Shown here: piece after piece, positions 730 to 38,858 of the stretch
Layout of the letters: every line of letters begins with the position of its first letter
Position numbering within the stretch: position 1 is the stretch's first letter
From: Naegleria gruberi
Taxonomy: Eukaryota
Length of the DNA: 64,000 nt
Reading direction: 5' to 3' (one strand)
Assembly (NCBI GenBank): GCA_000004985.1
Contig: GG738847.1
Position numbers and translations under genes: made by a program
The notes under the pieces: generated by a model
Told to the model about the DNA's origin: nothing
Seen by the model: only the letters and a program-made list of their open reading frames with translations
Databases searched by the model: none

Positions 730-802
730 GCCGACATAGCTCAGTTGGGAGAGCGTAAGACTGAAGATCTTAAGGTCCCTGGTTCGATCCCTGGTGTCGG
801 CA
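730..802 (+). tRNA. tRNA-Phe (anticodon GAA)
   Basis: GCCGACATAGCTCAGTTGGGAGAGCGTAAGACTGAAGATCTTAAGGTCCCTGGTTCGATCCCTGGTGTCGGCA. Acceptor, D and anticodon stems are perfect, the anticodon loop is CTGAAGA, and the T-loop is TTCGATC. There is one U51:U63 mismatch in the T-stem. The sequence is near-identical to animal tRNA-Phe. A T6 run follows. Confidence 0.88.
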
Positions 803-14050: not shown

Positions 14051-14070
14051 TTCATGGCTCGCCACGTTTA

Positions 14071-14141
14071 CCGTCTCGGGAGGAATCGAACCTCCGTCAA
14101 TGGATTCAAAGTCCACTATGCTACCATTACACCACGAGACG
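14071..14141 (-). tRNA. tRNA-Gln (anticodon UUG)
   Basis: Minus strand CGTCTCGTGGTGTAATGGTAGCATAGTGGACTTTGAATCCATTGACGGAGGTTCGATTCCTCCCGAGACGG. All four stems pair, the anticodon loop is CTTTGAA, and the D and anticodon arms are near-identical to animal tRNA-Gln. The first base pair is the unusual C1:G72. Confidence 0.82.
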
Positions 14142-14337
14142 AGCACATTTATGATATTTCGATACGAATAATTAACTGGATTGGAACATAAAAGCACACG
14201 ACATTCTTGTTACATATTGAAAAGTAGTGTAGTATCGTCTTCATTTCCCCAATACTCCAAATTGGTAAAATATTTAGTATGAACAACCGTTTCGAATAAA
14301 TTTCTTGCTTAATCACTGATTCAACAAAATTCGGAAA

Positions 14338-16854: not shown

Positions 16855-19170
16855 TTATTTAAGTTCTGTAACAGCAAGCCCATTCTTGTGAACCAAAGTC
16901 TCTGCATCTTGGACAGCCTTTTTCTTGGCTTCTTGTTGAGTGAAAAGTTTCTTTTGTTTATCTAGAGCCTTAGAAAGATTCTTCTTGGCACTCTTTGTCA
17001 CTTCGACACCATCCTTATCCTTAGTTGGGAGGCCAGTTTCATCCCATTCAGAGAACTGGGAAGCATATTCTCCTTGTTTGAAAAATTCGAGTGGATCAAT
17101 CAATGATGTTTCGTATTCTTTTTGAGCAGTGGCAAGTTTTTCTTCAGATTTCTTGAGAGCATCAAGTTTGGCTTGTTTTTCATTTGCTTTCTTTTCTTCT
17201 CTTTCTCTCAAAAGTTCATTCTTATCGGCCAACTTCCAAGATGTTGTTTCCTTCTTATCTTCTAATCTAATTCCAAGACCTGGAAGAACATCATCTCTCA
17301 AAGAATCACAAGTTTGTAAAATTCTTTGTTCCTTCTTGTCATTCTTGTCACGAGCAATGTTTCTAATTTCAGATCTAAAGTCAGAGAGAGCATTAATGAT
17401 TGGAGCAACATTTTCTTCATAGCTTTCACCTCCAGAAACTGGGAAACCGAATGTATCAACACCATCAACCAAACCAAAAACTGAGAAAATTCTAGTGACA
17501 TAGTAACCAACTTGCTTCAAAAGTGGAACACTTGGATACTTTGGAGCATCAGCACTGTGTTGATCACCTCCTTGTTTGACAAATTCATTGAATTTTTCAA
17601 CATTCTTCTTTTCCAAATAAGTGTTAGTTGCCTTGATCAAAGATTGGAGAGTTATCATACATTTAATGGTATCGAATGAATTTCTCAAAGCAGTATCAAC
17701 GTCAAGTTTGCTCTTTGACAAGGTTTCACTCAATTCAAAATCAGCTTGATCCCATTTTTCAATACTCTTACCAGTCTTGGTAACATAATCTCTGAAAATA
17801 ATCTTTAAATTACCAAAGAATTCTTGGAATGATTTTTCAATAGACTTGGCATATTCCATAGTTGTTTCAGAATATTCCATTTCATCATCAAATTTACGAT
17901 AGAGGAACATCATTCTGATTTGACGAGCAGTGTACTTTTCAAGAGCTTGTCTAATGGTAATAAAGTTCTTCTTTGATTTAGACATGGACATTCCATCAAT
18001 GGACAAGTGACCAGTGTGAAGGAAATAATTGACCCATTGTCTTGAACCAAGATAAGCTTCAGATTGAGCAAGTTCATTATCGTGGTGAGGGAACTTCAAG
18101 TCGATACCACCACAGTGAACATCCAAAGTAGCATCATTAGCAGATCTACCAGCCAATTTAGCAGCTTGTTGAAGTGCATAACAAGCCATAGCACTACATT
18201 CAATGTGCCATCCAGGTCTACCTTTACCCCATTTACTATCCCATTCTGGTTCACCTGGCTTTGAGGTCTTCCACAAAGCAAAGTCCTTCTTTGATTTCTT
18301 TTTAAAAACTTTCTTTTCAGTTTCAGATTCACCTTCACCATCCATCAAACGTTCTTCACAATTAACATTCCATGGTTCCAATTTACCATAAACATGTTTT
18401 TGATTTTGTTGGAAAGCTTCAACATCAAAGTAAACATTTCCACCTTCTTCATAAGCAAAACCATTATCAATAATTTGTTGAATAAAACTAACAACTTCAT
18501 CAATATGTTCAGTAACTCTAACAAGAACTGTTGGTGTCTTGACTTGAAGTTGTTTCATATCTTCCCAGAACAAATGTTCATAATAACGTGGAACAGACAA
18601 AAAGTCTGGTTGAGAAATTAAATCAGCACTCAATCCAGCTTCAACAACAGCATTCACAAGTGCTTTAAATTCATCAAGAATTTGTCCCAATGTAAGTTGT
18701 TTAGCCTTTACCTTTTCTTCTTGATCAATCTTTAACTTTTGTTGCAAATTCAAAAGGTATTCTTGTAATTTACTATTTGATTCCGATGATGGAAGGCTTG
18801 TAAGTTTTTCTAAAAGTGATGAAGCATTATTTTCCAAGGCTACTCTATTACTCTTCTTGATAATCTTATCATCAATATCGGTAATATTTTCAATATAAAT
18901 AACATTAAAGTTGAAATAATCTTCCAAAATTCTGCGAACAATATCAAAACCAACATAGGTTCTGGCATGTCCCATATGACTCCAATCATAAACTGTTGGA
19001 CCACAAGTGTACCAAGTAATGGTATTACTATTGTCTTGTAAGATGAACTTTTCCTTCTGACAAGTCAAGGAATTGTACACTTCAATACCAGTGTCTCTTC
19101 CTTGTGGTTTGAACCATTCTGGTTGTTGTACTGATGGTTTTTGTCCACTTGTTGTTGTTTGTGGTAGCAT
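16855..19170 (-). CDS. Cysteinyl-tRNA synthetase (cytoplasmic type with K/E-rich C-terminal extension), 771 aa
   Basis: ATG start. Class I motifs are present: the HIGH-type region CGPTVYDWSHMGHARTYV, the KMSKS motif (LSIDGMSMSKSKKNF), and the zinc-binding CysRS core (WHIECSAM). Confidence 0.93.
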   Translation of the reverse strand: MLPQTTTSGQKPSVQQPEWFKPQGRDTGIEVYNSLTCQKEKFILQDNSNTITWYTCGPTVYDWSHMGHARTYVGFDIVRRILEDYFNFNVIYIENITDIDDKIIKKSNRVALENNASSLLEKLTSLPSSESNSKLQEYLLNLQQKLKIDQEEKVKAKQLTLGQILDEFKALVNAVVEAGLSADLISQPDFLSVPRYYEHLFWEDMKQLQVKTPTVLVRVTEHIDEVVSFIQQIIDNGFAYEEGGNVYFDVEAFQQNQKHVYGKLEPWNVNCEERLMDGEGESETEKKVFKKKSKKDFALWKTSKPGEPEWDSKWGKGRPGWHIECSAMACYALQQAAKLAGRSANDATLDVHCGGIDLKFPHHDNELAQSEAYLGSRQWVNYFLHTGHLSIDGMSMSKSKKNFITIRQALEKYTARQIRMMFLYRKFDDEMEYSETTMEYAKSIEKSFQEFFGNLKIIFRDYVTKTGKSIEKWDQADFELSETLSKSKLDVDTALRNSFDTIKCMITLQSLIKATNTYLEKKNVEKFNEFVKQGGDQHSADAPKYPSVPLLKQVGYYVTRIFSVFGLVDGVDTFGFPVSGGESYEENVAPIINALSDFRSEIRNIARDKNDKKEQRILQTCDSLRDDVLPGLGIRLEDKKETTSWKLADKNELLREREEKKANEKQAKLDALKKSEEKLATAQKEYETSLIDPLEFFKQGEYASQFSEWDETGLPTKDKDGVEVTKSAKKNLSKALDKQKKLFTQQEAKKKAVQDAETLVHKNGLAVTELK

Positions 19171-19433: not shown

Positions 19434-22400
19434 TCACATCCACATTTCCTTTACAAGTCTTGACATGCCTTTTTCAAATTCTAATAAGAATATTTCCTCT
19501 GGAGTTTTACCTTCGTATTCATTGACAATGATAGGCTGTGGTGGTTCTTCATGTGTAACATTTACAGGAGTAGTTGTCTCAGTAAGTGGGTCATCCTCAG
19601 AATCTTCATCATCAGAAAGTTCAATTACTCTTTGTTCAACAACTGAAGAATTAGCATTATGGCCCTGTTGTTGGGAGGAAGGTTCTGACTTCTTATTGTC
19701 AACTGGTTCTTGTGTTTTGTTTTTGGACTTCTTTGCATCTTGTTGCTGTTTTTTCTTATTCTTGCTCTTGGAACCTTTCTTATTCTTCTTATTTTTCTTC
19801 TTTGGGTCTTCCTTTGGTGCTGTTGGCTGATCTTCTTTCTTTGTGGAATCACCTCTCAACAAATGTGAAATATCCTTCACTATTAATGGTTCATTATAAA
19901 CATTCTTTTGTGGTTTAGGTGGAACAGTATTTGTTGGCTTTGGAGAAGTAATTTTCTTATCATCCACTTGTTGATTATTCTTGCCATTGGCAGATGTACC
20001 CTTCTTGTCTTGGGACATGCCGACGATTCCAATACCAAGTATACCATTCATCAATTTAGAATAAAAGTCCTCATTAAAATCATTTGGAAGTTCTCCCTTC
20101 TTTTTCATTTCCATAAATCTCATAGTTTCCTCCCTAATTATTTCTTCTCTACTATTTCCATTTGATGATGGTTGTTGTGGTGGTTTAATTGATTTGATAG
20201 GTTCTGTCTGGATTGGTTTTGGTGGTTCAGAAACATCATGCCTAGAATCTAAGAAATTCAAAATCTTAAACTTGGTAAATACAAATTCACTAATATTGTC
20301 ACCATAGTCATTCAAGGTGATGTAAAATGTCCTAGCTTTTGCACTGACATCTCTCAGTGCCTCAAATTTACTATTAAATATAATATCTGTTAAAATTTCT
20401 TCACCCTTGTTCTTTTCAAATCTCTTTCTTCCACTCTCAAATCCCAATAATCCAGTCATTGTATTAATTGAATTGTATTGAAGCTCAATCAAGCTCATGT
20501 CAATTCCTGGCTTTCCAAAGGGACTATTAGGATTGGGTACCTTTTTAATAATATCCAATAAAAGCTCCAAATATCCTTTTGATATCAGTGTATTATTCAC
20601 TTGTTCCGAAATTTGTTTTAGTAAGAGAGGTTTTCCCCAACATTCAGGATTTTGACAACTATTACCAATGGTAATAATGGCAAAATTTTTAGCTTCCACA
20701 TCAATAATTTGATGGGAAAGCTTATACAATGCAATTAGTGTCTTTTCATCAGAAACTATTGCTTCCTTGACATCAAAATTCTCCACTGAAAGGTATGCAT
20801 AACATTGGGCAATATATACAGCTTTGACAACTGGCATTCGTTGAACAGCCAATGATCTAGAGACTTGTAGTAATATTGGAGATAGAGCCACAAGTCCATT
20901 CATTTCATAAATAGTTCTGCTAATATCTGAAGAGCCTCCTCTTGCAATAGAAGCAAGAGCAGAAACAGAGGCATCCAAAAGGTCACATAATTGATGATCG
21001 CACTCTCCAATGTCAAGAATTATATAATCGATCAAGGAAAGTTGTTGAATGATTTGTCTTAGAGCATCGCCATCCTCATATTGCACAATTCTTCTCCTGA
21101 GTGAACAATCAGTATCCACACTACACAAATCAGTTACTGCTCTTGTTGAGAAGAGTTTCAATTCTTGATCATCCCACAAACACAGAGAATCCAATATACT
21201 ATCAATACCATTTAAAATTAGAGATCGTTCCTCCTCTTCCTTGAATATTTCCTCCAGAACACTCTTGTTTTCCTTCTTATTTTGTATGTCTATTTTATCA
21301 AAATCTTCTGACATGGCCCTAGAGCATTCATTTACTGCACTAGCAATATAATCTACGAGTAATACTGCGCCCATACTCCTACAATTTATATCAGTGGGAG
21401 ATGAGGCAAGACAATAAATGTCCAAAATATTTAATCCAAAATCATTCTCATCATTTACAAGATCTTCGTCGTAATCGGTAAAGTTTTCAGAATTTTGAAA
21501 TTCCATCTCATTGGATATTTCTTCCATTGAAGGTTTATAACCAAAAACTTCTGCACATTTTTTCTTCTCATACTCCACAATAGATTTAGCATAATAATCA
21601 CAATATTTACAAATATTAACTACTGATTGTTCCAAGGCATCCAAATCACTTTTGGTTTTGTTTTGTTTCTTTGACATTTCATTAATATGATATGATGTTC
21701 CATGTAGAGTTCTCAGGCTATCAAAAACATCCTCCTTACTTCCCAAAAGTAATGTAAAGTCAATATCACACTTGTGTGAATGTCTTCCATTATTATTTTG
21801 ATAATTTTTTTCCTGGGAATCCATTTGTGAATTGATACTGACTTGTTCTAAAAGTGCTGTGAAATTCATATATGCTTCCTTATATTTCTTCATGCATATA
21901 AGAGCATGTCCTTTAATTATATAAGCCTTTTATAATTATTTTGATGAATTTTAAATTGATTGAATAAATATGAATATTAAATATTAATATAATACTTACT
22001 GAATGATAGGAAGAATTTTGTCGCAGAACTGAATCACAATCCACAACTGCTTTAGAATATACATGATGTCCGATAAATGCTATGGCTCTCAAAATATACA
22101 ATGTAAAGGTACAAGGAGAAAGTGGAAGAGAACTTGAAGAACAAGAAATATCATGAAAGCCCAGAGATGAGTGTAAATCCTGCCTATGTTGGTCATCATC
22201 AAAAAGTGTTGATTCCAATATAAAAGGAGGTTCCTGTGTTTGACAATTTTGTAGATCATCCAAGACTCCTCCTTCTTCATCATCCTTCACTATGGTAACA
22301 TATAAATTTTGTTTCAAACCGAGAGAGGTTGTAAAACATCCTATAGCAATTTCATACTTTTGATGATGAAGAAATGAAATTCCTTTAGTGTAGCCTGCAA

Positions 22401-22716
22401 TTATCTTTTTCAATGCAAACTTTTTTCGTTGTTCAAATATTGTGTTTGGTGTGGAATTATCCATTATATTCTGTTGGTCCATATTATCTGTTGATGATGA
22501 CACTACTAGTGATGATGAAGTTTCTATCATTTCTCGAGAAGGTGATGATGAATTTGCCTTTTCATGTTTGGCATTACTATGATTTTGTTGTGTAGTATTA
22601 TTATTATTATTTGATGATGTACTATTCTTTCGTTTTGGTGTTTGCTTTTTCGATTTCTTCTTATTTGCATCACCTTTTTGTTTTGATGATGACTTGGAGT
22701 CGGAATTGGATGGCAT
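19434..22716 (-). CDS. TPR-like/armadillo-like protein of about 1080 aa. Exons 22000..22716 (ATG at 22716) and 19434..21926. Intron 21927..21999 (GTAAGT...AAG, 73 nt). The ORF track split it into two ORFs.
   Basis: The upstream ORF runs straight into a GTAAGT donor after ...RQNSSYHS. The acceptor restores the frame into AYIIKGHALICMKKYKEAYMNFTALLEQ, completing a TPR-like helix pair. The C-terminus is a K-rich basic tail. Confidence 0.68.
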
Positions 22717-22878
22717 TTTATGTATTTTTTATTCTTGATAACAAAAATTGATGAGGGAAGACATTGCTTTTTGATCTACGGCAATAAGATTGATAATTTA
22801 TTAGTGGTCTTTCATTACTTCATAAACTATATTATAAATTAATAATAATAGCCATTCAATAATTCTTTAAAAGAAAAA

Positions 22879-24276
22879 ATGAGTTTTGATGGTTTTGAAG
22901 AAATTGCAAGCACGTTGATTCAAGCCAATCACGTGAAACAAGCTTTGCAAGCTGTAAACAAACAGCAAAAGATGTACAAAACACTCCTCTCACAAAGACA
23001 ATTACCAAAGGAGGGATTTTCGGATCAACAGATTGAGTCCTTGCTTTCCTTCTTTGCATCAATGGATACGAATAATTATGAAAATCATATCGGAATTGGA
23101 GAAAGAGAAGGAAGAGTGTTTAGTAAATTGGTGGAAAAGAGACACTTCTACCTCAGTCATGGTATTGGAAGATCTGGAGAATTAACATCAAATCAACCAA
23201 AAGCAGCTGGATCCTCTATTATTTTACAGTTGTGTAACTATCTTGTCAATCATGCAATTCAATTAGCAGGATGTAAAAATGTAAAGAAATCAATTGTTGT
23301 GCCAATGTGTACAGGAATGACACTTGCCTTGTGTCTGAGATCCTTGGCCAACAGTTTGGAACAGCCCAATAAGAAGTATGTCATTTGGCCAAGAATAGAT
23401 CAACAATCTGTCCTCAAATCTATTGACACTGCTGGATTTACACCAATAGTCATTGAGAATGTTTTAAATGAGGATGGATCTATTGAGGCAAATCTACAAT
23501 CTATTGAAAGCAAGATACAACAAGTTGGAGCTGAAAATATTTTGTGTGTCTTGTCGACAACAAGTTGTTTTGCACCTCGAGTTCCAGATGATGTTTTTGA
23601 AATTGGAAAGATTTGTTTCAAGTATGGAATTGGACAAGTTGTAAATAATGCCTATGGAGTTCAATCAAAAATAATTATGGAGAGAATTAACAAGACAATT
23701 GCCAGTTCAAAATCAACCATTACTTGTTTCGTTCAGAGTACTGATAAGAACTTTATGGTACCTGTCGGAGGAGCTGTTGTTTCCAGTGGTAGTGATATCA
23801 CCTTTATTGATAAGGTGTCGAAAATATATGCAGGAAGAGCATCCATGACACCAATTCTTGACCTATTCATCACTCTTCTATCAATGGGTAAAGATGGATG
23901 GGAGAAGCTTCTCGCAGAACGAGAGGTGCTATTTCAACATTTTGTTTCTGAGATTGAATCCAAATTAACCAATACCCAATCTAAATTTTCCTTAATACGA
24001 GGCTCTTTACAGAGAAACCAAATTTCATTTGCTCTTTCCATTGATTTACCAAAGGAGGAGGCACTAAAGGTGGGCGTATCGCTTTTTTACAGAAATTGTA
24101 CTGGTCCTCGGGTAGTTCTGAAAGGTAGCTCAAAAACAGTACTCCCCCATCTTTCATTTGTTGGATATGGTTCTCATACTGATTCCTATCCTCATCATTA
24201 CATTACGCTTGCTTGCGCTATTGGTATTGAAAAGGAGGAAATTGAATCCTTCTTAACCTTGCTTAATAAAGTTTAA
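22879..24276 (+). CDS. SEPSECS: O-phosphoseryl-tRNA(Sec) selenium transferase (SepSecS, SLA/LP family), 465 aa, single exon
   Basis: GIGEREGRVFSKLVEKRHFYLSHGIGRSGELTSNQPKAAGSS, WPRIDQQS, STTSCFAPRVPD, VNNAYGVQS and the PLP-lysine context STDKNFMVPVGG align closely with SepSecS along the whole length. Confidence 0.9.
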   Translation: MSFDGFEEIASTLIQANHVKQALQAVNKQQKMYKTLLSQRQLPKEGFSDQQIESLLSFFASMDTNNYENHIGIGEREGRVFSKLVEKRHFYLSHGIGRSGELTSNQPKAAGSSIILQLCNYLVNHAIQLAGCKNVKKSIVVPMCTGMTLALCLRSLANSLEQPNKKYVIWPRIDQQSVLKSIDTAGFTPIVIENVLNEDGSIEANLQSIESKIQQVGAENILCVLSTTSCFAPRVPDDVFEIGKICFKYGIGQVVNNAYGVQSKIIMERINKTIASSKSTITCFVQSTDKNFMVPVGGAVVSSGSDITFIDKVSKIYAGRASMTPILDLFITLLSMGKDGWEKLLAEREVLFQHFVSEIESKLTNTQSKFSLIRGSLQRNQISFALSIDLPKEEALKVGVSLFYRNCTGPRVVLKGSSKTVLPHLSFVGYGSHTDSYPHHYITLACAIGIEKEEIESFLTLLNKV

Positions 24277-24520
24277 TCAAGACTACAATATATCTCACAT
24301 CATCCCGCGTACAGTAAGATACATCATTATACTACCGTAATAAATAAAATATTGGTCGGCCGAACTGCAATGATTGTTACCGGAATTTCTACCGGTCATC
24401 GCTCCTTCTATGTGTGACCATTCATGACATTGAGGGGTGTTGTGATGTTCACAAACAGACAAATCCTCAATGTTATTAAGGGCGGCGTAACTAGTTGAGA
24501 GATTCGTTGATAGGAAAAGA

Positions 24521-25030
24521 ATGTCTCAATGTTCTAGTGCTTCATCAGAGAGGTCGTTTGTTATTTCTTCTTCACTTTCAAATCATTGCCAAGCAAGACA
24601 AGAAGAATTTGAAGAAAATCTCGAAGAGAATACTATTATAAGCAATAGTGTAGATTTATTTTCTTCATCAACAACCTTATCAGCGAGCAGCAGAGATGAT
24701 GAGGATACTGATGATGACACTGAGAATGACTTGGATAACGATTCATCATCCACCACTGCTTCCAGTAGTATAGCAATTCCTTCTTCCCCCAAGAATTGTT
24801 ATCAAGATAATTTAATGGGTCCCTTCTCCTTCCCTCCCAAGACAAATATTCGTCATCATGAGCAACAACATCGTCATCGTCGTTCATTCATGAATGCTGC
24901 ATCAGACAATCGCAATACAACAATAACACACGCGTTGAATCATAGACCCTTCATCCACACACACAGAAACAGACCCTCTAGAATATTGGTATTTGATGAG
25001 TACAATAACGGAGATCAAGGGCAGGCTTAA
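24521..25030 (+). CDS. Hypothetical low-complexity acidic/Ser-rich protein (169 aa); may not be real
   Basis: ATG-initiated ORF with mixed codon usage and no recognisable domain. Confidence 0.3.
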   Translation: MSQCSSASSERSFVISSSLSNHCQARQEEFEENLEENTIISNSVDLFSSSTTLSASSRDDEDTDDDTENDLDNDSSSTTASSSIAIPSSPKNCYQDNLMGPFSFPPKTNIRHHEQQHRHRRSFMNAASDNRNTTITHALNHRPFIHTHRNRPSRILVFDEYNNGDQGQA

Positions 25031-25546: not shown

Positions 25547-27836
25547 ATGTCTACCAAACGAGGAAAGGAAGCCATTCTCAAATTCTGTCAACGTGCCTGT
25601 CAAGAACGTGGCGTTGAAGTAAAGAATTTATCAACATCTTTTGCTGATGGTTTGGCATTTGCTGCCATCGTTGATAGTGTATGTATTGATTCTTTTAACA
25701 TTCCCTAACCTTCCTCTTTCACTTTTTTGTATTCTATATATGATTTAACTCTTTCTAACATTATAGCAAAGACCAGAACTCTTGACAAACATGGGTTTAA
25801 CTTTCAAGACCATCCAGGATGATTTTGGTCGTGTTGAAAGACTTCAATGGGCTTTCGATCAAGCAGAACAATTGGGCATTCCACGTCTATTGGATCCAGA
25901 AGATATCGATCCAGAAAAACCAGATGAAAGATCCATCATTACATATCTCTCGGCTGTTTATAAATTCTTTAAGGAAAATGCAGGATCAGGTGCTGCTTCT
26001 TCTGAACAACAAGCCTCCGAAACAACTTCTGCCGCCACTTCTCCAGAAGCTACTGCAGCAGAAACAACACCAATTGAACAACAATCAACTACAGAAGAAA
26101 ATGGCGCCACTTCTACTACTGAAGAGGCTGTGGTTGTAGAACCAACTGCTGCTACTGCTGAAGAGACACCAGCTGCTGTTGTAGAAGAGACACCAGTCGA
26201 ACCAACACCTTCACCAACAACTGAAGAGCAACCAACTGAAGAAACAACTCAACAACCAACTGAAGAAGCTACTGTCGTTGAAGCTGTTGTTGAGTCTGGA
26301 ACTAATGAACTTGTTGCTGAAAAGACTGAATTGACTGATGATGAAAAATTGATTTTACAAGATAATACTGAAGTTCATGTTGATGTTGTTACTCCACAAC
26401 CAAGTGTTGAAGAAACTTTCCCATCTTCTCTTTCCACAACTGCTAGTGCTGGAGGTGCTTCAATTGCTGAAGAGCAATCACTCTCAGAAACTAAATCAGA
26501 TAGCTCATCTGATTCTGAAGAAGAAGAATCTGTTCCTGTTGTTGATAAAAGATCACCACGTCGTGTTACTGAAAGAGTTGCAAGTGTTGTTTCTCAAGTT
26601 ACTGCAACAACTCCAACTAGAGATTGGTCCTTTGATGATTCTGATGATGAGGATAATTCATCTCGTGGTCGTAATACTGGATCTTCATTGGCTTCTCAAG
26701 AAAGAGTTAATGAATTGAGAGATAAGATTGAACAACTCAAGCAAAATGTCAAGCAAGAACAACTTGATAAGGAACGTCTCAAGAAGCGTGAAATGGAATT
26801 GGAAAATGAACTTCAAAAGTATTTGAATGATTTGAAACGTGCTCGTTCTGAAGTTGAAGAAGCCAAATTGCAAGGAAAGCAAGAAAAGGAGTTGGAATAC
26901 GAAGCTCGTCACAAGGTTGAAATTGAAAAGTCTAACCTTTACAATGAAAACAGAAAGTTGTTGGAAACTATTTCTGATTTGGAAAGACAAGTTAGAGAAA
27001 ACCAACAAGGTGAAAAGTCATTGAATAAGGATATTCAAAAATTGCAAAGAACTATTGAAAAACTTCAAGCTGAAAAGAACAGTGAAGTTGAAGACAAGCT
27101 CAGATTGGAAAATGACGTTTCTGATTTGAAGAGACAATTAACTACTGTTACTTCTCAATTCAAGACTTCCCAACAAGTTAGCTCAAATGCTGAACTAGAA
27201 TTACAATCATTGAAGAACTTCTTTGAAAAGGAAAAGAGAAACAGAAAGTTGCTCAACCAAGAAATTAAGGATCTCAAAGGTGAACGTGATGCATTGACCC
27301 TTGAATTGGAAGATGTTCGTGATGAAATTCACAAGTTTGAAATCCGTATCAAGGAAGTTGAAATGGAAAAGGAACAAGAAGCTAGAAAACTCAAAGTTGA
27401 ATTGGAAGAAAGAGTTAATATGGATAATCGTATGAAGCAAATCAGAAAGGACGTTACTGACATGAAGTACAAGGTTGAACAAGAAAGACAAAACGTTCTC
27501 ACTGTTGAAGCTCAAAAACGTAAGCTCGAAGAAGAACTTGCTCTTTCACACACCAAGTATGACCAATTACAACAAGAATTCTCTGCTATGAAGAGAGAAG
27601 TCAAGAAGGCCGAACGTGAAGTTCAAAAGGCTGAAAAGAGAGCTGACACTGAAGAACAACGTTCAAATGAATTGAAGGTTCAACAAAATCAATTGCGTGA
27701 TGAAATTCGTCAATGGAAAGAAAAGGTTACAAAGGCTGAATTCGAAACTGACAAGGTCAAGAGAGAAAAGGAAAGCCTTGAAAGAACTATCAGAGAATTA
27801 GAGTTGCAACTCTCATTCAAATCAAGCAGTTTTTAA
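25547..27836 (+). CDS. Calponin-homology (CH) domain protein with T/E/P-rich linker and long C-terminal coiled coil (733 aa). Exons 25547..25678 and 25767..27836. Intron 25679..25766 (GTATGT..TTCTAAC..TAG).
   Basis: AILKFCQRACQERGVEVKNLSTSFADGLAFAAIVDS|QRPELLTNMGLTF...ITYLSAVYKFF is a CH domain. The C-terminal 400 aa form heptad-rich E/K/L coiled coil. Confidence 0.8.
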
Positions 27837-27874: not shown

Positions 27875-30800
27875 TTATTGTTGTTCTTGATTAAGATTGA
27901 CTTGACGAGCTTGATTTTCATTGATAGAGTAAATATCTACCATTTGGAGTGGAATTGGATTAACTCTACGCTTTGATTCTTGTTCGGTTGGGACTACAAA
28001 TACGCTCTTCTTGCCTTCCTTTGGATCTTCTTTAATTTGAACCTTAATATAATATCCTCCATCCTTATGCTTAACAATATTTGCATGGTGAAGCATTGGA
28101 TCATCAGAAATTTGACCATTGTTAACATAAGGTTCTCTTGGAAGTTGACCAACAGGGAATCTCTCTGGTTTTGGTTTAATTTCACCTCTTGGATAAGCTC
28201 TATTATTTGCAGGTTCAACAGTTGGAGGATAATTTTTAAATGTTGCTTGATTATCACCCGGATATGGATTACTAACGTAATTTGTTCTTGAATCAATATA
28301 TGAAGCATTGTTTCTTGCCTCTGAATAACCATTATTTCTTGATTCTGAATAGGCATTATTTCTAGTTTCAACGTAAGAGTTGTTTACGCGCAAGTTATTA
28401 TTGGCTTGACTATTGGATTGGTATGAACTGCTTTGCATTTGAGTACTTGAAATCTTATTATTCATACCAATATTCAATGTGTTTGGAAGATCAGGTCTAA
28501 CAACAGGTTCTTGAGATCCATCATTAAAGTAAGTCTTATAAGTTGTTTCATAAATACCAACTGTTGAGGCTTTTCCATAGCCTGAATAATCAATTTCAGA
28601 ACTCACATTCTTCAATCTATTTTCAGCAACTTCATTTCTGGCAACATATGTGCTTGCAACTTTTGGTTTTTGATTTTCAACAACAATTGAAACTGGTCGA
28701 ACAATTTCCGGTTTTTGTGGTTGTTCATATACTGGAGGGTCAAATCTTGGAGGACTGATATAATCATTAACTGGAACAACTCTTGGAGGAGTTTCATAAG
28801 AGTTATTATTGGATTGAGCAAATTCATTTCTTTGTCTATTTTCAACAACTCTACTTTCAACAACAGTGGCCTTATTATTATTACTAATACCAACAAAATC
28901 GCCGTCAACTCTCCAAACAGGACCTGAACTGATTGGGAGAGGTTGTTCTTGAGTACCATCATTCTTATAATAGGTCTTGTAAGTTGTTTCATAGGTTCCT
29001 GTTGTTGATTTACCATAGTTAGAATGGTCAATTTCTGTAGAGGAATTCTTCATTCTGTTTTCATTCATAGCATTAACTGATTCAACTCTAAGGTTAAGAT
29101 TGGCTTGTCCTGTAACTATGTTATTTCTATCTTGGACAATTGATCTCTCATTGTAATAGACAATGTCGTTCTTCTTATTGTTATCAACTACGTATGAAGA
29201 ATCTGTTTGATTATTATAGCTGGAAAGTTGAGATTGTTCATGCATGTATTTTTCTTGCATTCTGTACGCATCTCTATTTTCAACATATTCTTCATTAATA
29301 TAAGAATCATTGACAACTCTTTCAGGAATTGGTTGAGGGATTGGTTGAGAAACGACTTGCTGTGTCATAATTGGCTTTGGAATTACAGGAACAATTGGTT
29401 GATGAATGACTGGTTGCGAGTTTGTTTGTGGAGGAGGAACTGAAGATCTATTAACAACTTCAGTAACTCTTGCTGCTTGGTCAGTGTTAACATAGTTCGA
29501 TGAATTGTTATGAACAACTTTTTCGTAGTATCCTTCATGTTGATCATTCATGTCAGTCATTGAAGATTGGTTATGGATAACAGACTTTTCAATATTGACA
29601 CGTCCATTATCATTAACAGTTTTAACAATTTCAGATCTGGAGCCATTATTATCTGTAACAGTTGTCTTGACTGTTTCATAGGAACTGTAATTGTTGTTTT
29701 GTCCACTCTTATTATTGACAACTTGTTCTGTTTCAACAGTTTTAGTTTCCAACTTGACAGCAGTGGTATTAGCACCCTTTGTTATATCAATATTTCTATC
29801 ATTAGAGCTCTTATTAACAACAGTCTTGGTTTCAGACTTAGTTTCAGTTGATTCAACGGACTTTCTATTTTGGTTTGCATTTTCTGGAGGTGTTCTCTTA
29901 ACCTTTTTAGCTTCGGTCTTCTTCTTGGCTTCGGTCTTACTCTTGGCTTCAATCCTACTCTTAACTTCATTCTTAGAATTAGAAGCAACCTTTTGCAAAA
30001 CGTGTTTACTTTCTTCTGTCTTTGGGGATGGCTTCTTAATTAATTGAGGTTCAGATTTAGTCTTCTTAGTTTCAGGAGCTGAAATACTTCTACTTGGGTT
30101 TGCCATTTTAACTGGTTTAGCTTCTTGTCTTTTAACAATCTTCCCAGGTGGTGAACCATTTCTTGCTCTATTGTTTACTGCCTTTACAATTCTTTCATTT
30201 GCTTGCATTCTTTCTTGATTAACATCTTTTTGTTGTTGAAGGAGGTTATTTTTTGATTTACGTTCATAAAAATTGATTTTTCCATTATTATTATTCTTAG
30301 CTTGTTCATTCTTGTTGTGGTAGTGTGTCTTTGTTTCAGTTGTAATTTTGCCATTATCATTAATTTCAATTGTGATTTCAGTTCTAGTACCTCGCTCATC
30401 AGTGATAGTTCTCCTTGTTTCCTTCTTTATAATGTTATGTTCAGAGAATTGATTATTCTTTGAACGATTATTGACAACTGCTTCTTGGTTGTTGTAACTC
30501 TCGTCATAATCTTCAGAACGTTCAACATTAGTTCTTTTTCCATTCACCAATGTACTCTTTTCAACATTAACCTTTCCATTATTATTCACACCCTTAACTA
30601 TTTCTGTTCTTGTTCCATTTTCATCTGTAACTGTACGCTTTGTTTCATAAGTGCTGTAGTTGGAAGATTCTGAATCATTCTTCTTGGCTTTCTTTTCCAC
30701 CACATAATTTTCTTCCTGTTGGTTATTCTTTGATTGGACCTTAATAGGTTTCTTTGGTTTTGGTGGAATGAATTGTGGTTTTTGTTTGACAACCTTTTCT

Positions 30801-33800
30801 TCAACCACATAAGAAGGTTCTTGTTTAACAACCTTTTCAACAATTGTTTCTTGTTGTGGGATGAACTTTGGTTGTTGCTTTACAATCTTTTCTTCTTCAA
30901 CAATTTGACTGTGTTTCTCTTCAGAATGAATTCTTTCGTCATAGGAAGATCTCCTATTAATATTACCATTGTCATTAACTTCCTTTACAACTTCAGTTCT
31001 TGTTCCATTATTATCACTAACAGTTTTAGAAGACTCGAATGAGCTGTAACTTGAACTCCTTGTTCTGGAACCATTAAGCTTATCTTCAGTAAAGTGTTCT
31101 GGAAGAGACAGAATGTTTTTAGATGAGGTGTGCATAGTTTGGTGTATTTCTTGTTTTGGTTCATAGCTATTCTTTGATGTGACGATCTTTTCTTCATCAT
31201 AATCTTCTGTTGCAAAAAGTTGATCTTCAACGCTCTCCTCGACAGCTTCTTGTTCTTTTTCTACAACATATTTAGCAGAATCTTTTCTGATAAATCTTGG
31301 TTCTTCAATATGTTCTTCAACTTCATTTTCTTCGATGTATTGAGATTTTTGCTTAATCAATGGCTTACTTGGTTTTGGAGGGCTAACTACCTTTGGAACA
31401 TGTCTTGGTTCATCTATTAGCTTTTCTTCGACACGTTTTGGCACATGATGAATTGCAGTCTCTCTTGGCTTTGGGCTAACAACCTTTGGAAGATAAACTG
31501 GTTCATCAATCTTTTCTTCAACCTCATAGGAAACGTGTTCGACAGTATCTCTTGGTGAAGGAGAGAATTCATTTCTTTGTCTAACAATTTTCTCTTCTAC
31601 TATTGTTTCTTGTGGTGTTTCTTCTACAGCCTTTTCCTCTACGTGGAGCAATGCCTCTTGGTCATAATGTTGAGTCTCTCCATAGCTAGAAGTTACTCTA
31701 CTCCTGCCAGTGCTTCTTCTTGCAGAAGCATATGATCTTCTGGATGAACATTTGGATTCCTTCTCCTTTTCGGATAATTCAGTCAAGAATGGAGGAGCAA
31801 AGTAATCATCACTAGTGCTTTGTTTTGTAATGAAAGTGCTGTTAAACTCTTCTTGAGCAATTGGTGCAGTGTTCTTTGCATGATTACTAACTGCTTGTTC
31901 TTCTTCAATCATAAAGGATGGTTCGACATATTCTTGCTTTACAACACCAGCCTTCTTGTCATTTTCATAAACACTCTTTTCAATATTAACTTTTCCATTA
32001 TCGTTCACTCCCTTAATAATTTCTGTTCTTGTTCCATTATTGTCACTAACAGTATTTGAAGATTCATAAGTACTATAGTTTGTGTAGAATCCACCAGTCT
32101 TTAATCTGGCATCGCCAAGATGTTCTTGAGTTAAAATCTGACCATTATTATTAGATGATTCATAAGTACTATAACTTGTACTATATCCAGTCTTGATGGC
32201 TCTGACATCACCATGATGTTCCTGAGAAGAATATTCCCCGGTATGAAGATTTCTGGAAGCATTAGTAACACCTCTATCATTGTTCATAGCATTTGGATAA
32301 ACATCATAACCATTACCTGAAACAACCTCAGAGTGACCATTTTGAGAAAACACCTTTTCCACATTGACTTTACCATTGTCATTGACCCCTCTTATGGTTT
32401 CAGTTCTCGTTTGTCCATTTTCATCAGTGTAAGTTCTTGTTGTTTCATAGGTACTATAGTTATTAGAATAGCCAGCATTCGAATTGGTTCTATTTTGAGC
32501 AGCAGAAACAGCAACAAGTTCATGCTTTTCACGGCTTCCTTTAGAAGAGAATGGCGATTCAGTTCTTGAAGATTTGCTGCTTTGGTTTCTTGAACCATAC
32601 GTATTAATCTTGTTTGTGTAATATTGGGCATTACTGTTTGAAACAGTTCTTGAGTACTCATTGAAATCTTCATTATGATAGTCATCCAATGTTGTTGACT
32701 CTTGATTCATCTCATCAACTGTTTGGTGATATTCATACCCTCTGTTAGTTTCAGAGTGGGATTTCATAAATGGTACATGTTCATGTTGCTCACGAGCATA
32801 ATTAATAGCTTGCCTACTTCCGTGAGAAGAGGAATAATGACTACCTTTAAAGCTACTACCTCTACTGTATTCTCTTTTTTCTTCTTCACTGTTACTTCTA
32901 CTGGTGAGAGTACGATAGCTTCCTGTATCCTTAATATCAGCCATTGACCTCATATGTTCGTAATTGACAACAGAATGTCCTCCTTCTTTAGTCTCTGTTA
33001 TCATTTGTCTATTTTGCATTTCCTCGGTGCTGACAAAGGTACCACCCTCTTTCCTATAGGCATGAGCACTGGTTGTTTGTCTTGCCACTCCTTCCAACAT
33101 ATTTTGATTGCTTGCATATTGGCTATCAGACGAATTGGTTGTTGTATTGGTTGTGGTGGTTACAACTTTCTTACCTCCATTCTTCTCTAACATTTCAATA
33201 TCAGTGTCGACAGCTTTTGCCACCAACATGATTGTCCCGTCCTTCATTCTCTTACCAACGTACACTACCTTCTTTTTGACAACTACATCTTGTTGGTATT
33301 TCTTCTTGTAATAGCAGCAGCATACGGCCACACAAATGAATGTAATAGTAAAAACACAACAAACCAATAAGATACCACCTGCAACGCAAATAATGATAAT
33401 ATAGGAAACATAGGTGACGGTAGTTGTTTCCATCACGAAAACATTGGTCAAATGATTACATTTACATTTAACAAGTGAAGAATTCAAGGAGGTGTAAGTG
33501 CAATTTGTTGTGGAAAAAGTTGCCAAGCTTGCTGCAGAATCTTCAAAATTAGCACAGTAGAAAATTCTTGATTGAACTACATATGAAAATGATTGTTGAG
33601 TTAGGTCATGAACAATGTTGGTGGTATTCACTGGAATGATATATTCTATACCTTCCCCATTAAACGAGACAGGATTATCAGTAATGGCAAGAGAGACAAT
33701 TGGAGAAACGGCACTTGATAATTTGTAAGTAGATGGTAAGCTTGTCTTGAGAGGGGTGTTCAACTTCTTGTTGAGACCAATGATATCATCAGAAACAATT

Positions 33801-36800
33801 AAAGCATGGGCGAAAGGCTTTGTAATAATTGTTGTCTGAGGTGAGAAGAGAGAAGTAGAGATGGATGTAGATGATTCAACTTGTAAAAGAGTTGCTTGAT
33901 AATTGTATAGAGTACTCTTTCCAACAGTTGAATGGTAGAACGACCCTCTGACATATTCTGGATAATTTACATTGATTTCTCTTGCTCTCAAAAGAGAGAA
34001 TTTCTTCATAATTCTAAAGACCTTGATACCGTTAGAATAACCTCCTCCATTTCTATCATAAATATAATGATATACATTATTTAAACATTTGATCAAGAGA
34101 TTATAAAGTTCAATAGGTATTCCAAGATCTGAAACTAATAAGGCATCATCCATAAATTTGTCCAAAGTTGTTAAGGCTTGAGAAATTGTTATGTTACTGA
34201 GATATGGATAGTTTGTTATGAGAGAATCTATGGCAATAGATACCATGATGACATAATCTTGATCAACTACAACATTAGTTCCATTGAAAACTTGGAGCAT
34301 GCTTCTCAATAGCGTTGACTTATCCATTTGAATATTATCATATTCGGTCACATGAACATCACAATTGTTTCCTACATATCCATCGGCGCATTTACAAGCT
34401 CCAGATGTTGTTTGTATACCATTTGTACACTCCTTTGCAGTGGAGAGTAAATCGAGCCCATTAAGAGCAGAGTTGAGCAAAACAGAATCAATTTTTGAAG
34501 TTGCAGATGATTGATAGAAACTCTTTCCAAAAGCACCAGAAGTGAGATATGAATCACTTAAAGAATTAAAACCTTGTGACTTTTCTAATACAAGGGTGAC
34601 ATTTGAAGCTACTGCAGGTAAAGTTACAGTAATGTCCTTGTAAATTGTCGTTGTTGATTCAGTGGTAACATCAATAATATCAAAGAAAACGGTTACCTTA
34701 TTGGAAAGTGTTGGACCTGGCAATTTAGTAGAAAAGAAATTACCCTTATTGTAGAGAGAAACTTTTAAATTGGCTCTATCATCTATATAACCAAACCTAA
34801 AATCTATATTATTGATCGAGCTCTTACAATTCAAACAATAAAACTGAAATTGTGATTCCATAGCACTACCACTGGTTGGTGAAATGTCACAATTACACAC
34901 TTTTGGAGAGATGCCCACTTGGAAGTTGTAAGTTAGTTGGGTGGATTGACTGATTGTTCCGTCGTTAACCACTACTCGCAAAACATTAGAAGAACCTTCT
35001 GTTAACTTAGAAGAATCAACCTTTACAGTTTGAGATGACCCTGATTGAATTATTCCTGAGTATAAAGTAACGCCGTTCAAACTCCATGTTGAATTTGTCT
35101 TGTCAGAGAAAGATGTCACAAATATTTGTGAGACGAAATTCTTTCCTGGAGCTATTACTGACGATTTTGGTTCAATTGTAACAAAGTTTACAACTGGAGG
35201 AATTGTTTGAAAATAAATGGTTATGCCCTTGGTTATGCTTCTCATATCTGACTTTACAATTTGGAGAGAAATATCAACGGATCTTGGAATGATATCGAAT
35301 AAAGAAGTGGAAACTGTAAAGTAAGTCTTTTTGGTGTTGGAAATGGCACTTAGTAAGGTGAGAAGACGAGGAGAGGTATTATCTAAACAGGTCCAGGTCC
35401 ACGTCTCTGATGAGAGTGTGTTGAATATTGATTCTGGATCAGAATAGTCAACTTGAACTGTTGTGTAATCTGATTTAGCTTCATATTTCATCAAGTTCAA
35501 AATTAAATTAGGAGATTGAGTGTTGAGTGTAATGATACTTGATGTCTTTGTGCTTTGATCCAAAGCATAATATGCGGAAACTTTAAATGTATATGTATTA
35601 CTACCAAATGTTGTCAATTTTGGAATAAAAAGATCATTATATGAATCTACATTATATGCAACACTTGGTCCACTCAATTGAGACCATTCGACCACTATTG
35701 TATCACCATTAGCCCTACAGGATGAGTGCTCAACAAATTTGTTAATCAGTAATGGAAATTGATTTGAGTATTTAGTCAGAGTGTATTGATCCTTTGCAAT
35801 TGTTAAAATTGGCAATACTTTTGTTGATTTCACAAAAGTACTAGAGTAAACTATGATACTATCCTTACTGAGGTATTCACTTCTTACTTGAAGTCTCATC
35901 TTGTAACTTCCGGCAGCGAGAGAGGAATCCAAAGTAATAAAGGCGCTATTAGCAAATGATGTGGATACCACACTCAAAGATGATGAATCCACCACTGCCC
36001 AGTTGTAGGTTAATGCCTTTCCATCTACCGAATAACTTTGAGAACCGTCAACAAGAATGGTATCACAAGAACTGAAGGTATCTACTGCTGGAAGTCTTAT
36101 TGTTGCTATTGGTGTTGCAATAACTGCTGGTGGATTAATAACAAAACTCAAATATGTTATAGTATTAGAAGATGTGGAATTATCAAAAGCACCGGCATTA
36201 ATTCTCAAATTACTAACCCCAGATTGAAGAGAAAAATCAATTGATCCAAACTTGATGAGAAAACGATACGTAGACTTGTCCAAGTAAAAACATCTCACAC
36301 TCGCACTGGTTCCATAAAGATCTCCAGATAAATCAGATGGATGTAAAACTTTGGAGCATGAGAGTTCAGAACCAGTAAAAGATGAAGGGGAATGAAAGAC
36401 GAATGAAATTCCTCTAAAGTCATCAGTTATTGTAGCAGGACCCGCAGCAGATGTGGCACATTTCTCTCCGTAGTATCCATTTTTACATGTATTACATGAA
36501 GCTCCCGTCCAATAACCTTCATCAGCATTGGAGTAACAAACACATGAATCAGAGACATCACATTCTCCATGACTTGAACAAGTTGTTTCTTTTGAGCATG
36601 CAGTGATTTCTTTTGAGTTGTATCTCCTTGTTGTTCGTCGTGGAGTGAATGAAACACCTTTCAAGAGTATATTTCCACCTTGTCCAACAATATACACCTT
36701 ACCGTCAATCTGTGTACTGGTGATGGAGGAAAGTTCATCAGTGAAGAGTTTACCCTTGAATACGCCACCTCTTATTTCACTTGATTTTGCGACGAAAACC

Positions 36801-37480: not shown

Positions 37481-38858
37481 TTTTTTGTTTGCTGACCGTA
37501 ACAAACTAAGCTTTAAACTTTCACAAGACTTTGTGAACAAATTAAGGTGGAGCGTTTCCAAACGAGGCCTCTTCAGTTACTTCTGCACTCGATAACTTAG
37601 TTTCCTTCTCCGATCCCAATACTTCCTTAAGGGAATTGATGCCTTGTTAGATTTTCGGTTACTGATATTCTCGCTGTGTTTTTTTGCCGCAACAATCAAT
37701 TCATCACTTCCCTTAATTTTTTCCTCTTTGTAGTTTAACCAACGCCAATAATAATGTAAATAGGTTGTGTAATCATTGACTGAATAGGAAACTTGAGACA
37801 TTGGCTAAAAAACTTAATGAAATATATTTCATACCTCACCTAGAAATCAAGGCCTAAAAGCTAAGTTGACTTCTAATTAGAAGGCAGGAGTGATTTTTTT
37901 TTTTCTCTGGGGTTTTCTATTGAAAATCAAATTAGAAGTGGAAATAAATGGTAATCTTGCTCAAACTCAACATAACAAACTGGGAAATTCTTTAACTGGC
38001 ATTGATGAAAAAAGTTCTGATGAACTATTAAGTTTCCACCTTTCTTCAAGTCATTTCGGTATAGAATTCATTCTCTTTACTAAACTATTTTGAACAAACA
38101 CTTTATGGAAGTGCCGCTCAATAAAAAGTACCTCAATCATTACTAACAACAAACAAAATAACTTTTCCATCTTTGTTGATAACAATTACTAATAATATGA
38201 TCAATAAAACTGTTCCATCCTTAATACTTCAAAGGGTCAATATAAATTACCAAAGAAACCATTTTGTATTGATGCGGATCTTTTAACACTATTAACAGAT
38301 TTTATCTACCCTTTCCTATGCGCGTCATGGTTCAACATTGAGAAAAACTCATCACCAATAACGACAAATAAGAATTGACGATGCTTTTAAATACAAAAGT
38401 GGCTCCTCTAGCTGATTGTGTCTGCTTTCACCCAACAAGTCCAAGTTACTTGGCGTTTTTGTTTGCATCTCCCTGATGTACTTGTTGTTAACTTGCGTAG
38501 AATAATTAGAGAAAAAAAACAACGCAACTTTGCAGGTATTGAAGGTATAAATCACAACAACAAGCCTTTGAAAAATTAATTGATACTCTGCGGTTTGGAT
38601 TCAACCTCAAATACCAATCATACAACAATAGTACGAGAGTGTGTGAACGCATTGTTTAAACTTGTTTCAAGTATCTTCATAGTCACCGTTTAATTCTCTC
38701 TTCGAATATATTAGCATTTTGTGATCAAACAAGCCTTCCGAAATTTACCCTCTTTGATCATCACAACCACCACATTTTGTATACTACTGCTACCAATCGC
38801 TAATACTTCCATCAAATCTCCACACAATTGTAACATATAACTCTCCTAGGAATACACC

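What the first reader, a model, noticed from the sequence alone, without database searches (positions are those of the whole stretch)
22879..24276. Selenocysteine-synthesis enzyme SepSecS present, so the organism should encode selenoproteins
The 465-aa single-exon ORF matches SepSecS across its length, including the PLP-lysine context STDKNFMVPVGG and the GIGEREGR, WPRIDQ and STTSCFAPRVPD blocks. SepSecS is only retained in lineages that insert Sec. This predicts tRNA-Sec, PSTK, SPS2, eEFSec, SBP2 and SECIS-bearing selenoprotein genes elsewhere in the genome. That helps narrow the organism, since fungi and land plants largely lack the pathway. Cysteinyl-tRNA synthetase lies 3.7 kb upstream (16855..19170); this is probably coincidental.
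Basis: partly seen in the sequence, partly recalled or inferred. Interest (0 to 1): 0.6.

Follow-up and report, generated by a model that had tools for sequence, protein, structure and literature searches.

The report
Naegleria gruberi selenocysteine synthase gene (SepSecS)
This is the intact, already annotated gene for the enzyme that makes selenocysteine on its tRNA in the amoeboflagellate Naegleria gruberi, whose selenocysteine machinery was published in 2013, so the finding is correct but ordinary.

Summary
Window 22879..24276 (+) is an uninterrupted 465-codon ORF with all four quoted motifs. It matches Pfam SepSecS (PF05889, E=4e-117) and the NCBIfam equivalog TIGR03531 (539.8 bits, cut-off 224.85). 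It aligns end to end with human SepSecS (E=3e-115, 45% identity). Its predicted fold superposes on human SepSecS (TM 0.90); the best non-SepSecS PLP enzyme reaches TM about 0.55. Every catalytic residue I checked against the crystallographic and mutagenesis literature is present, including the PLP lysine (K290), the Asn that replaces the usual Asp (N256) and the three arginines (R76, R98, R320).

The protein is 100% identical to XP_002682354.1 (NAEGRDRAFT_60240) of Naegleria gruberi, which UniRef already names O-phosphoseryl-tRNA(Sec) selenium transferase. The inference that the organism uses selenocysteine agrees with published work (da Silva et al. 2013; Mariotti et al. 2015). It cannot be tested inside this window, which holds no tRNA-Sec, SECIS element or selenoprotein-family gene. 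The neighbouring CysRS gene is real, but it is absent from the 10 kb either side of SepSecS in N. fowleri and N. lovaniensis, so that adjacency is coincidental.

Verdict: already known, low interest. The only oddities are two substitutions at positions that are otherwise conserved, human K173→Q and A143→C. Whether they lie next to the active site rests on my recollection and on homology.

The parts
22879..24276 (+). Complete single-exon coding sequence of O-phosphoseryl-tRNA(Sec) selenium transferase (SepSecS), 465 aa plus TAA stop. It equals N. gruberi XP_002682354.1 / EFC49610.1 / NAEGRDRAFT_60240 / UniRef100_D2V118.
23746..23748 (+). Codon AAG for Lys290, the PLP Schiff-base lysine (human Lys284, M. 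maripaludis Lys278), within STDKNFMVPVGG.
   Evidence: Alignment to 3hl2. Invariant in 120/120 homologues. Role taken from PMC2275076 and PMC3541580.
23167..23202 (+). Phosphate-binding loop, Gly97-Lys108 (human Gly96-Lys107). It includes Arg98, Ser99 and Gln106, which correspond to the M. maripaludis residues Arg94, Ser95 and Gln102 that bind the sulfate/phosphate.
   Evidence: R, S and Q each invariant in 120/120
23104..23106 (+). Codon for Arg76 (human Arg75, M. maripaludis Arg72). This arginine binds the PLP phosphate from the neighbouring subunit and is essential in the archaeal enzyme. It lies inside the GIGEREGR block.
23836..23838 (+). Codon for Arg320 (human Arg313, M. maripaludis Arg307). 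This active-site arginine occupies the position of the catalytic Cys of SepCysS and CsdB.
23644..23646 (+). Codon for Asn256 (human Asn252, M. maripaludis Asn247). This Asn contacts the PLP pyridine nitrogen in place of the Asp found in other fold-type I enzymes.
   Evidence: N in 119/120
23401..23406 (+). Codons for Gln175-Gln176. Gln175 is the eukaryote-typical Gln at the archaeal His166 position, which stacks on PLP. Gln176 replaces the Lys (human Lys173) found in 113 of 120 homologues.
22717..22878 (.). A 162-bp AT-rich intergenic region shared with the divergently oriented upstream gene. It is the presumed bidirectional promoter and 5' UTR region (inferred only).
24339..24344 (+). AATAAA hexamer 63 nt after the stop codon, a possible polyadenylation signal (inferred only).

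Best explanation
The ORF is the functional nuclear gene for SepSecS of Naegleria gruberi. SepSecS is a fold-type I PLP enzyme. From what is known of the human and archaeal orthologues, it should act as an (alpha2)2 tetramer. It binds O-phosphoseryl-tRNA(Sec), which is made by SerRS and then PSTK. It forms an external aldimine between the Sep amino group and the PLP held on Lys290, then eliminates phosphate to give a dehydroalanyl-tRNA intermediate. The phosphate is held by Arg98, Ser99, Gln106 and Arg320. The enzyme then adds selenium from selenophosphate, supplied by SPS2, to give Sec-tRNA(Sec). EFSec and SBP2 deliver that tRNA to UGA codons of SECIS-bearing selenoprotein mRNAs. Shown here: gene integrity, family membership, conservation of all catalytic residues checked, the fold, and orthology within Naegleria. 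Inferred from orthologues and literature: the enzymatic activity, the oligomeric state, and the presence of the rest of the pathway in this genome.
For: Family and equivalog HMMs score far above their cut-offs. The alignment to human, mouse and archaeal SepSecS crystal-structure sequences is full length. The AlphaFold model has mean pLDDT 84.4 and pTM 0.85. It superposes on human holo-SepSecS 7l1t with TM 0.90 and rmsd 2.5 A over 457 columns. All 23 top PDB hits are SepSecS, and the next hit is a PLP decarboxylase at TM about 0.55. R76, R98, S99, Q106, Q175, D289, K290 and R320 are each identical in 120/120 homologues, and N256 in 119/120. These are the residues shown by mutagenesis or structure to matter in M. 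maripaludis SepSecS (PMC2275076). Orthologues at 72-73% identity sit in the same micro-synteny in N. fowleri and N. lovaniensis, which points to purifying selection. The literature on the N. gruberi Sec machinery, SPS2 and a predicted Sec-containing TrxR agrees.
Against: There is no direct contrary evidence. The window itself contains no other Sec component: no tRNA-Sec, no SECIS hit even at E<=1, and no selenoprotein-family ORF. The pathway context therefore rests on papers, and the key one (da Silva 2013) could not be read in full. Three conserved positions differ from the human enzyme: K173->Q176, Y334->W341 and T397->Y404. W and Y are common at the last two positions among protists. AlphaFold confidence is low in residues 69-78 and 93-99, which include the Arg76 block and the start of the P-loop. 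That loop is also disordered in substrate-free crystal structures.
Confidence: 0.95

Rival explanations
1. The gene is a SepSecS orthologue retained as a relic, or repurposed for other PLP chemistry or a moonlighting role, in an organism that no longer inserts selenocysteine.
For: Parts of the Sec machinery can outlive the trait. Plant-parasitic nematodes kept SecP43 after losing Sec insertion (PMC4114682). No Sec-related partner lies in this window.
Against: In those same nematodes SecS and PSTK themselves were lost, and the authors use them as signatures of the trait. Every catalytic residue checked is intact, and the protein is 72-73% identical across three Naegleria species. N. gruberi has SPS2, which correlates perfectly with selenoproteins in eukaryotes. 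A Sec-containing TrxR is predicted in Naegleria.
Confidence: 0.02
2. The ORF encodes a different fold-type I PLP enzyme, such as SepCysS, a cysteine desulfurase/selenocysteine lyase, or a group II decarboxylase, that merely resembles SepSecS.
For: All of these share the fold, and Foldseek lists PLP decarboxylases and S1P lyases at E about 1e-13.
Against: Only the SepSecS family passes in Pfam and NCBIfam, at equivalog level. TM is 0.90 to SepSecS against about 0.55 to the other enzymes. The SepSecS-specific Arg (R320) occupies the position of the catalytic Cys of SepCysS and CsdB, and the N-terminal extension helices are present.
Confidence: 0.01
3. The Heterolobosea-specific substitutions (human K173->Q/L and A143->C) change how the enzyme handles the selenium donor or its specificity, for example its tolerance of thiophosphate.
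For: Q176 and C144 are minority states: 4/120 and 10/120. They are confined mostly to Naegleria, Willaertia and their closest database relatives. By homology, C144 sits in the segment whose Gly backbone contacts the PLP phosphate. Canonical SepSecS active sites are noted for lacking Cys.
Against: All residues shown to be essential are unchanged. As I recall, and I could not check it here, Palioura et al. 2009 found human K173A and K173M mutants active in vivo. I made no structural measurement of C144 relative to PLP. Acrasis, another heterolobosean, keeps K at this position.
Confidence: 0.02

Closest known systems
Human/mouse SepSecS (SLA/LP antigen; PDB 3hl2, 7l1t, 7mdl, 3bc8)
   Same: 45% identity over 441 aligned positions, end to end (query 12-463 against human 11-455). 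Same fold (TM 0.90). It has the PLP lysine, the P-loop, Arg75/Arg97/Arg313, Gln105, Asn252 and Gln172 equivalents, and the N-terminal helical extension.
   Different: It lacks the roughly 40-residue C-terminal tail of vertebrate SepSecS: 465 aa against 501, with the alignment ending at human 455. It carries K173->Q, A143->C, Y334->W and T397->Y. The variable-arm contacts Q268 and R271 are K and S here.
SepSecS of Naegleria fowleri (P0002, FDP41_007983) and N. lovaniensis (P0003, C9374_006860)
   Same: 72-73% identity over the full length. The same upstream gene (about 1100 aa, divergent) and the same small downstream ORF are present. Q at human K173 and C at human A143 are shared.
   Different: The N. 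gruberi protein is 30-40 aa shorter. It lacks a low-complexity insertion after the long helix (alignment columns about 440-520) and a short C-terminal tail.
Methanococcus maripaludis SepSecS (PDB 2z67)
   Same: Same family and fold (E=3.3e-63; TM 0.84; 31% identity). Lys278, Asn247, Arg72, Arg94, Arg307, Gln102 and Asp277 all have equivalents.
   Different: The archaeal His166 that stacks on PLP is Gln here, as in nearly all eukaryotes.
SepCysS and bacterial SelA
   Same: All are PLP-dependent, tRNA-bound amino-acid conversions. SepCysS also uses Asn at the pyridine-N position.
   Different: SepCysS uses an active-site Cys persulfide where this protein has Arg320. SelA acts on Ser-tRNA(Sec) and belongs to a different family. 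Neither family was hit by Pfam or NCBIfam.

Membership tests
SepSecS (O-phosphoseryl-tRNA(Sec) selenium transferase; Pfam PF05889, NCBIfam TIGR03531) | Full-length match to the family profile above the curated cut-off | tested here: met
   PF05889 scores 391.6 bits against 21.1, covering profile 1-386 of 389. The TIGR03531 equivalog scores 539.8 bits against 224.85, covering profile 1-442 of 444.
SepSecS | PLP Schiff-base lysine (human K284, archaeal K278) | tested here: met
   K290 lies in STDKNFMVPVGG and is invariant in 120/120 homologues.
SepSecS | Asn instead of Asp at the PLP pyridine nitrogen (archaeal N247, human N252) | tested here: met
   N256 is present.
SepSecS | Three conserved active-site arginines plus the phosphate-loop Ser and Gln (archaeal R72, R94, R307, S95, Q102), and no catalytic Cys at the R307 position | tested here: met
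   R76, R98, R320, S99 and Q106 are all present and each invariant in 120/120.
SepSecS | Fold-type I PLP fold with the N-terminal helical extension that mediates tetramerisation | tested here: met
   The AlphaFold model has pLDDT 84.4 and helices at residues 3-13, 16-39 and 49-61. TM is 0.90 to human SepSecS 7l1t. Tetramer formation itself was not modelled.
SepSecS | tRNA(Sec) acceptor-end contacts (human F396, T397, R398) | tested here: inconclusive
   F403 and R405 are conserved. T397 is Y404, at a variable position where T occurs in only 56 of 120 homologues.
SepSecS | [quoted passage not shown] | not testable with these tools
   This needs an enzyme assay or selA complementation.
Eukaryotic Sec-insertion trait (organism level) | Co-occurrence with tRNA-Sec, PSTK, SPS2, EFSec, SBP2 and UGA/SECIS selenoprotein genes in the same genome | not testable with these tools
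   Only this 64-kb window is available, and it holds none of them. The literature supports the trait in N. gruberi: SPS2 genes with coordinates in PMC4561486, and da Silva et al. 2013 as cited.

The most novel reading that the evidence does not exclude
The Naegleria/Willaertia SepSecS lineage has altered the surroundings of its active site. It lost the near-universal Lys at human position 173 (Q or L instead) and gained a Cys at human position 143. By homology, position 143 lies next to the Gly that contacts the PLP phosphate; the placement of K173 near the active site is from my recollection of the human structure paper. The change could alter selenium-donor handling or sulfur/selenium discrimination, perhaps linked to the unusual methyltransferase-SPS2 and NifS-SPS fusions reported in N. 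gruberi.
Probability: 0.03. Interest if true: 0.35.

Novelty: already known. Interest (0 to 1): 0.08.

Why it matters
It matters little beyond correct annotation. The gene confirms that the window comes from a Sec-using eukaryote, and its exact match identifies the organism as Naegleria gruberi. The gene is already in GenBank and UniProt under the right name, and the species' selenocysteine machinery has been described since 2013. For Naegleria biology the Sec pathway has some applied interest, because the predicted Sec-containing thioredoxin reductase is discussed as a drug target in pathogenic amoebae. This window adds nothing new to that.

Tried and rejected
1. An exact-product contig look-up for the window protein returned nothing. 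I identified the organism through the homologue search and the cluster look-up instead.

2. I looked for Sec-pathway partners inside the window. ARAGORN found only tRNA-Phe and tRNA-Gln. Rfam at gathering thresholds found only those two tRNAs. Rfam at E<=1 added three sub-threshold hits that look like chance (sau-13, MIR5298, SL1) and no SECIS or tRNA-Sec. Pfam scans of 24 other large ORFs found no selenoprotein family or Sec factor.

3. I tested a functional link between CysRS and SepSecS. CysRS is absent from the ±10 kb around SepSecS in N. fowleri and N. lovaniensis, so I rejected the link.

4. I could not read da Silva et al. 2013 (PMID 23603359) or Palioura et al. 2009 (PMC2857584); neither is held. 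Their content is cited only through other papers or marked as my recollection.

5. A literature search for Naegleria together with PSTK, SECIS, EFSec, SBP2 or tRNASec found no open-access paper combining them.

6. I ran no further search on PSTK or SPS2 of Naegleria. Only the top 120 hits are listed, and I had no Naegleria-like query sequence, so the result would not have been informative.

Full report
**Observation.** Window 22879..24276 (+) is an uninterrupted ORF of 465 codons. It starts at an ATG in an A-rich context (aaaagaaaaaATG) and ends in TAA. Four in-frame stop codons lie just upstream of the ATG. Met1 aligns with Met1 of orthologues from other protists and animals, so the ORF is complete at its 5' end. 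The window is AT-rich (32-38% GC) and carries long ORFs encoding low-complexity proteins, so it is eukaryotic.

**Identity of the protein.**
- Pfam gives a single family, SepSecS PF05889, at 391.6 bits and E=4e-117 over profile positions 1-386 of 389.
- NCBIfam gives a single equivalog-level model, TIGR03531 selenium_SpcS, at 539.8 bits against a curated cut-off of 224.85.
- Among solved structures the only hits are SepSecS: human (3hl2, 7mdl, 7l1t; E about 3e-115), mouse (3bc8; 1e-112) and Methanococcus maripaludis (2z67; 3e-63).
- The alignment to the human enzyme runs from query residue 12 to 463 (human 11-455), with 45% identity over 441 aligned positions.
- An AlphaFold2 model built on a 14-sequence alignment has mean pLDDT 84.4 and pTM 0.85.
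- Foldseek places that model on human holo-SepSecS 7l1t at TM 0.90 and rmsd 2.5 A. The first 23 PDB hits are all SepSecS. The next best are PLP decarboxylases at E about 1e-13 and TM about 0.55.

**Catalytic residues.** I mapped the query onto human numbering from the alignment. I then counted residues at each position in an alignment of the 120 best database homologues.

| Query residue | Human | M. maripaludis | Role | Conservation |
|---|---|---|---|---|
| K290 | K284 | K278 | PLP Schiff-base lysine | 120/120 |
| D289 | D283 | D277 | Partner of the first arginine | 120/120 |
| N256 | N252 | N247 | Asn replacing the usual fold-type-I Asp at the pyridine nitrogen | 119/120 |
| R76, R98, R320 | R75, R97, R313 | R72, R94, R307 | The three active-site arginines | 120/120 each |
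| S99, Q106 | S98, Q105 | S95, Q102 | Phosphate-loop Ser and Gln | 120/120 each |
| Q175 | Q172 | H166 | Eukaryote-type Gln at the PLP-stacking position | 120/120 |

The roles of these residues come from the archaeal crystal structure and mutagenesis study (PMC2275076) and from the human structures (PMC10164584; PMC3541580). Neither is met.

**Organism and prior annotation.** The protein is 100% identical over 100% of its length to a Naegleria gruberi protein. Its accessions are EFC49610.1, XP_002682354.1, NAEGRDRAFT_60240 and UniRef100_D2V118. NCBI calls it 'predicted protein', but UniRef names it O-phosphoseryl-tRNA(Sec) selenium transferase. The next ORF downstream, 24521..25030, is the next accession, XP_002682355.1, which confirms that the window is N. 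gruberi nuclear DNA. The deposited model has the same 465 residues, so the single-exon reading is also the annotated one. Orthologues in N. fowleri (72%), N. lovaniensis (73%), Willaertia magna (55%) and Acrasis kona (50%) head the hit list. Dictyostelids, ciliates, stramenopiles, animals and one chytrid fungus follow at 43-50%.

**Context and the CysRS neighbour.** The ORF at 16855..19170 (-) is a class-I cysteinyl-tRNA synthetase (PF01406, E=2.8e-107), 3.7 kb from SepSecS. I fetched ±10 kb around the SepSecS genes of N. fowleri (L001) and N. lovaniensis (L002) and ran tblastn with the N. gruberi neighbours.
- The divergent upstream gene is conserved, and a small ORF of similar size (178 and 170 aa) sits immediately downstream of SepSecS in both species. 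That downstream ORF gave no tblastn hit at 1e-5, so only its position is shared.
- The calponin-homology/coiled-coil gene at 25782..27836 is found further downstream in both species.
- CysRS gives no hit in either locus.

**The pathway inference.** Nothing else in the window belongs to the Sec system. There are only two tRNAs, Phe-GAA and Gln-TTG. There is no SECIS or tRNA-Sec match even at E<=1. None of the other long ORFs belongs to a selenoprotein or Sec-factor family. The prediction about the rest of the genome can therefore be judged only from the literature.
- A dedicated paper exists: da Silva et al. [quoted passage not shown] It is not held in the library.
- Mariotti et al. 2015 summarise it. 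N. gruberi SPS2 is fused to a methyltransferase domain and still performs the canonical selenophosphate synthetase function in genetic experiments. They list two Cys-type SPS loci with scaffold coordinates and a NifS-SPS fusion. [quoted passage not shown]
- Leitsch et al. 2021 cite the same paper for a large thioredoxin reductase in Naegleria with a predicted penultimate Sec.
- Otero et al. 2014 use SecS plus PSTK as the signature of the Sec trait.

**Mechanism.** Shown here: an intact gene, full family membership, conserved catalytic residues, a SepSecS fold, and conservation in sister species. Inferred from the characterised orthologues: the enzyme forms an (alpha2)2 tetramer through its N-terminal helices. 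It binds Sep-tRNA(Sec) and makes an external aldimine on the PLP carried by K290. It eliminates the phosphate held by R98, S99, Q106 and R320 to give a dehydroalanyl intermediate. It then adds selenium from selenophosphate to yield Sec-tRNA(Sec). I put 0.95 on this. The rivals are a relic or repurposed SepSecS, a different PLP enzyme, or a mechanistically altered lineage variant. Together they take the remainder.

**What is slightly unusual.** Human Lys173, which follows the PLP-stacking position, is Lys in 113 of 120 homologues. It is Gln in the three Naegleria species and Leu in Willaertia. Human Ala143 precedes the Thr-Gly whose backbone contacts the PLP phosphate. It is Cys here and in nine other homologues, including the other two Naegleria species and Willaertia. 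From memory, and unverified here because the paper is not held, Palioura et al. 2009 found human K173A and K173M mutants active in vivo, so I do not expect a functional consequence. The protein also lacks the vertebrate C-terminal tail and the low-complexity insertion seen in N. fowleri and N. lovaniensis.

**Verdict.** However, this is an already annotated gene of a pathway already published for this species. Novelty: already known. Interest: about 0.08.

Noticed in passing
window 19434..21893 (-) and 21913..22716 (-): These two adjacent minus-strand ORFs (819 aa and 267 aa) have no Pfam domain. Both match a single 1126/1150-aa gene lying divergently upstream of SepSecS in N. fowleri (L001 5954..9737) and N. 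lovaniensis (L002 6083..9719). In N. gruberi they are probably one gene, interrupted at about 21894..21912 by a short intron or by a sequence or model break.
   Followed up: partly
window 23404..23406 and 23308..23310: SepSecS Gln176 replaces the Lys found in 113/120 homologues (Q in three Naegleria species, L in Willaertia). Cys144 replaces the usual Ala (C in 10/120, including the Naegleria species and Willaertia). The significance is unknown.
   Followed up: partly
window 16855..19170 (-): This is a cysteinyl-tRNA synthetase (PF01406, E=2.8e-107) with a long Lys/Glu-rich C-terminal extension. The exact ORF product is not in the protein collection, so the deposited gene model probably differs, for example in its start codon or an intron. 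It is not syntenic with SepSecS in other Naegleria species.
   Followed up: partly
window 730..802 (+) and 14070..14142 (-): tRNA-Phe(GAA) and tRNA-Gln(TTG) genes are the only RNA-family matches above Rfam gathering thresholds in the window.
   Followed up: yes
window 27875..37561 (-): A very long ORF of 3228 aa shows almost no recognisable domain, only a marginal teneurin-like EGF match at E=2.3e-05.
   Followed up: no
window 61216..61899 (-) and 61965..62864 (-): A papain-family peptidase C1 ORF lies next to a cathepsin C exclusion-domain ORF on the same strand. They are most likely two exons of one dipeptidyl-peptidase I (cathepsin C) gene.
   Followed up: no
window 24521..25030 (+): This Ser/Asp-rich 169-aa ORF directly downstream of SepSecS is annotated as XP_002682355.1. 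ORFs of similar size (178 and 170 aa) sit at the same position in N. fowleri and N. lovaniensis, but tblastn finds no similarity at 1e-5. It is either fast-evolving or not homologous.
   Followed up: partly
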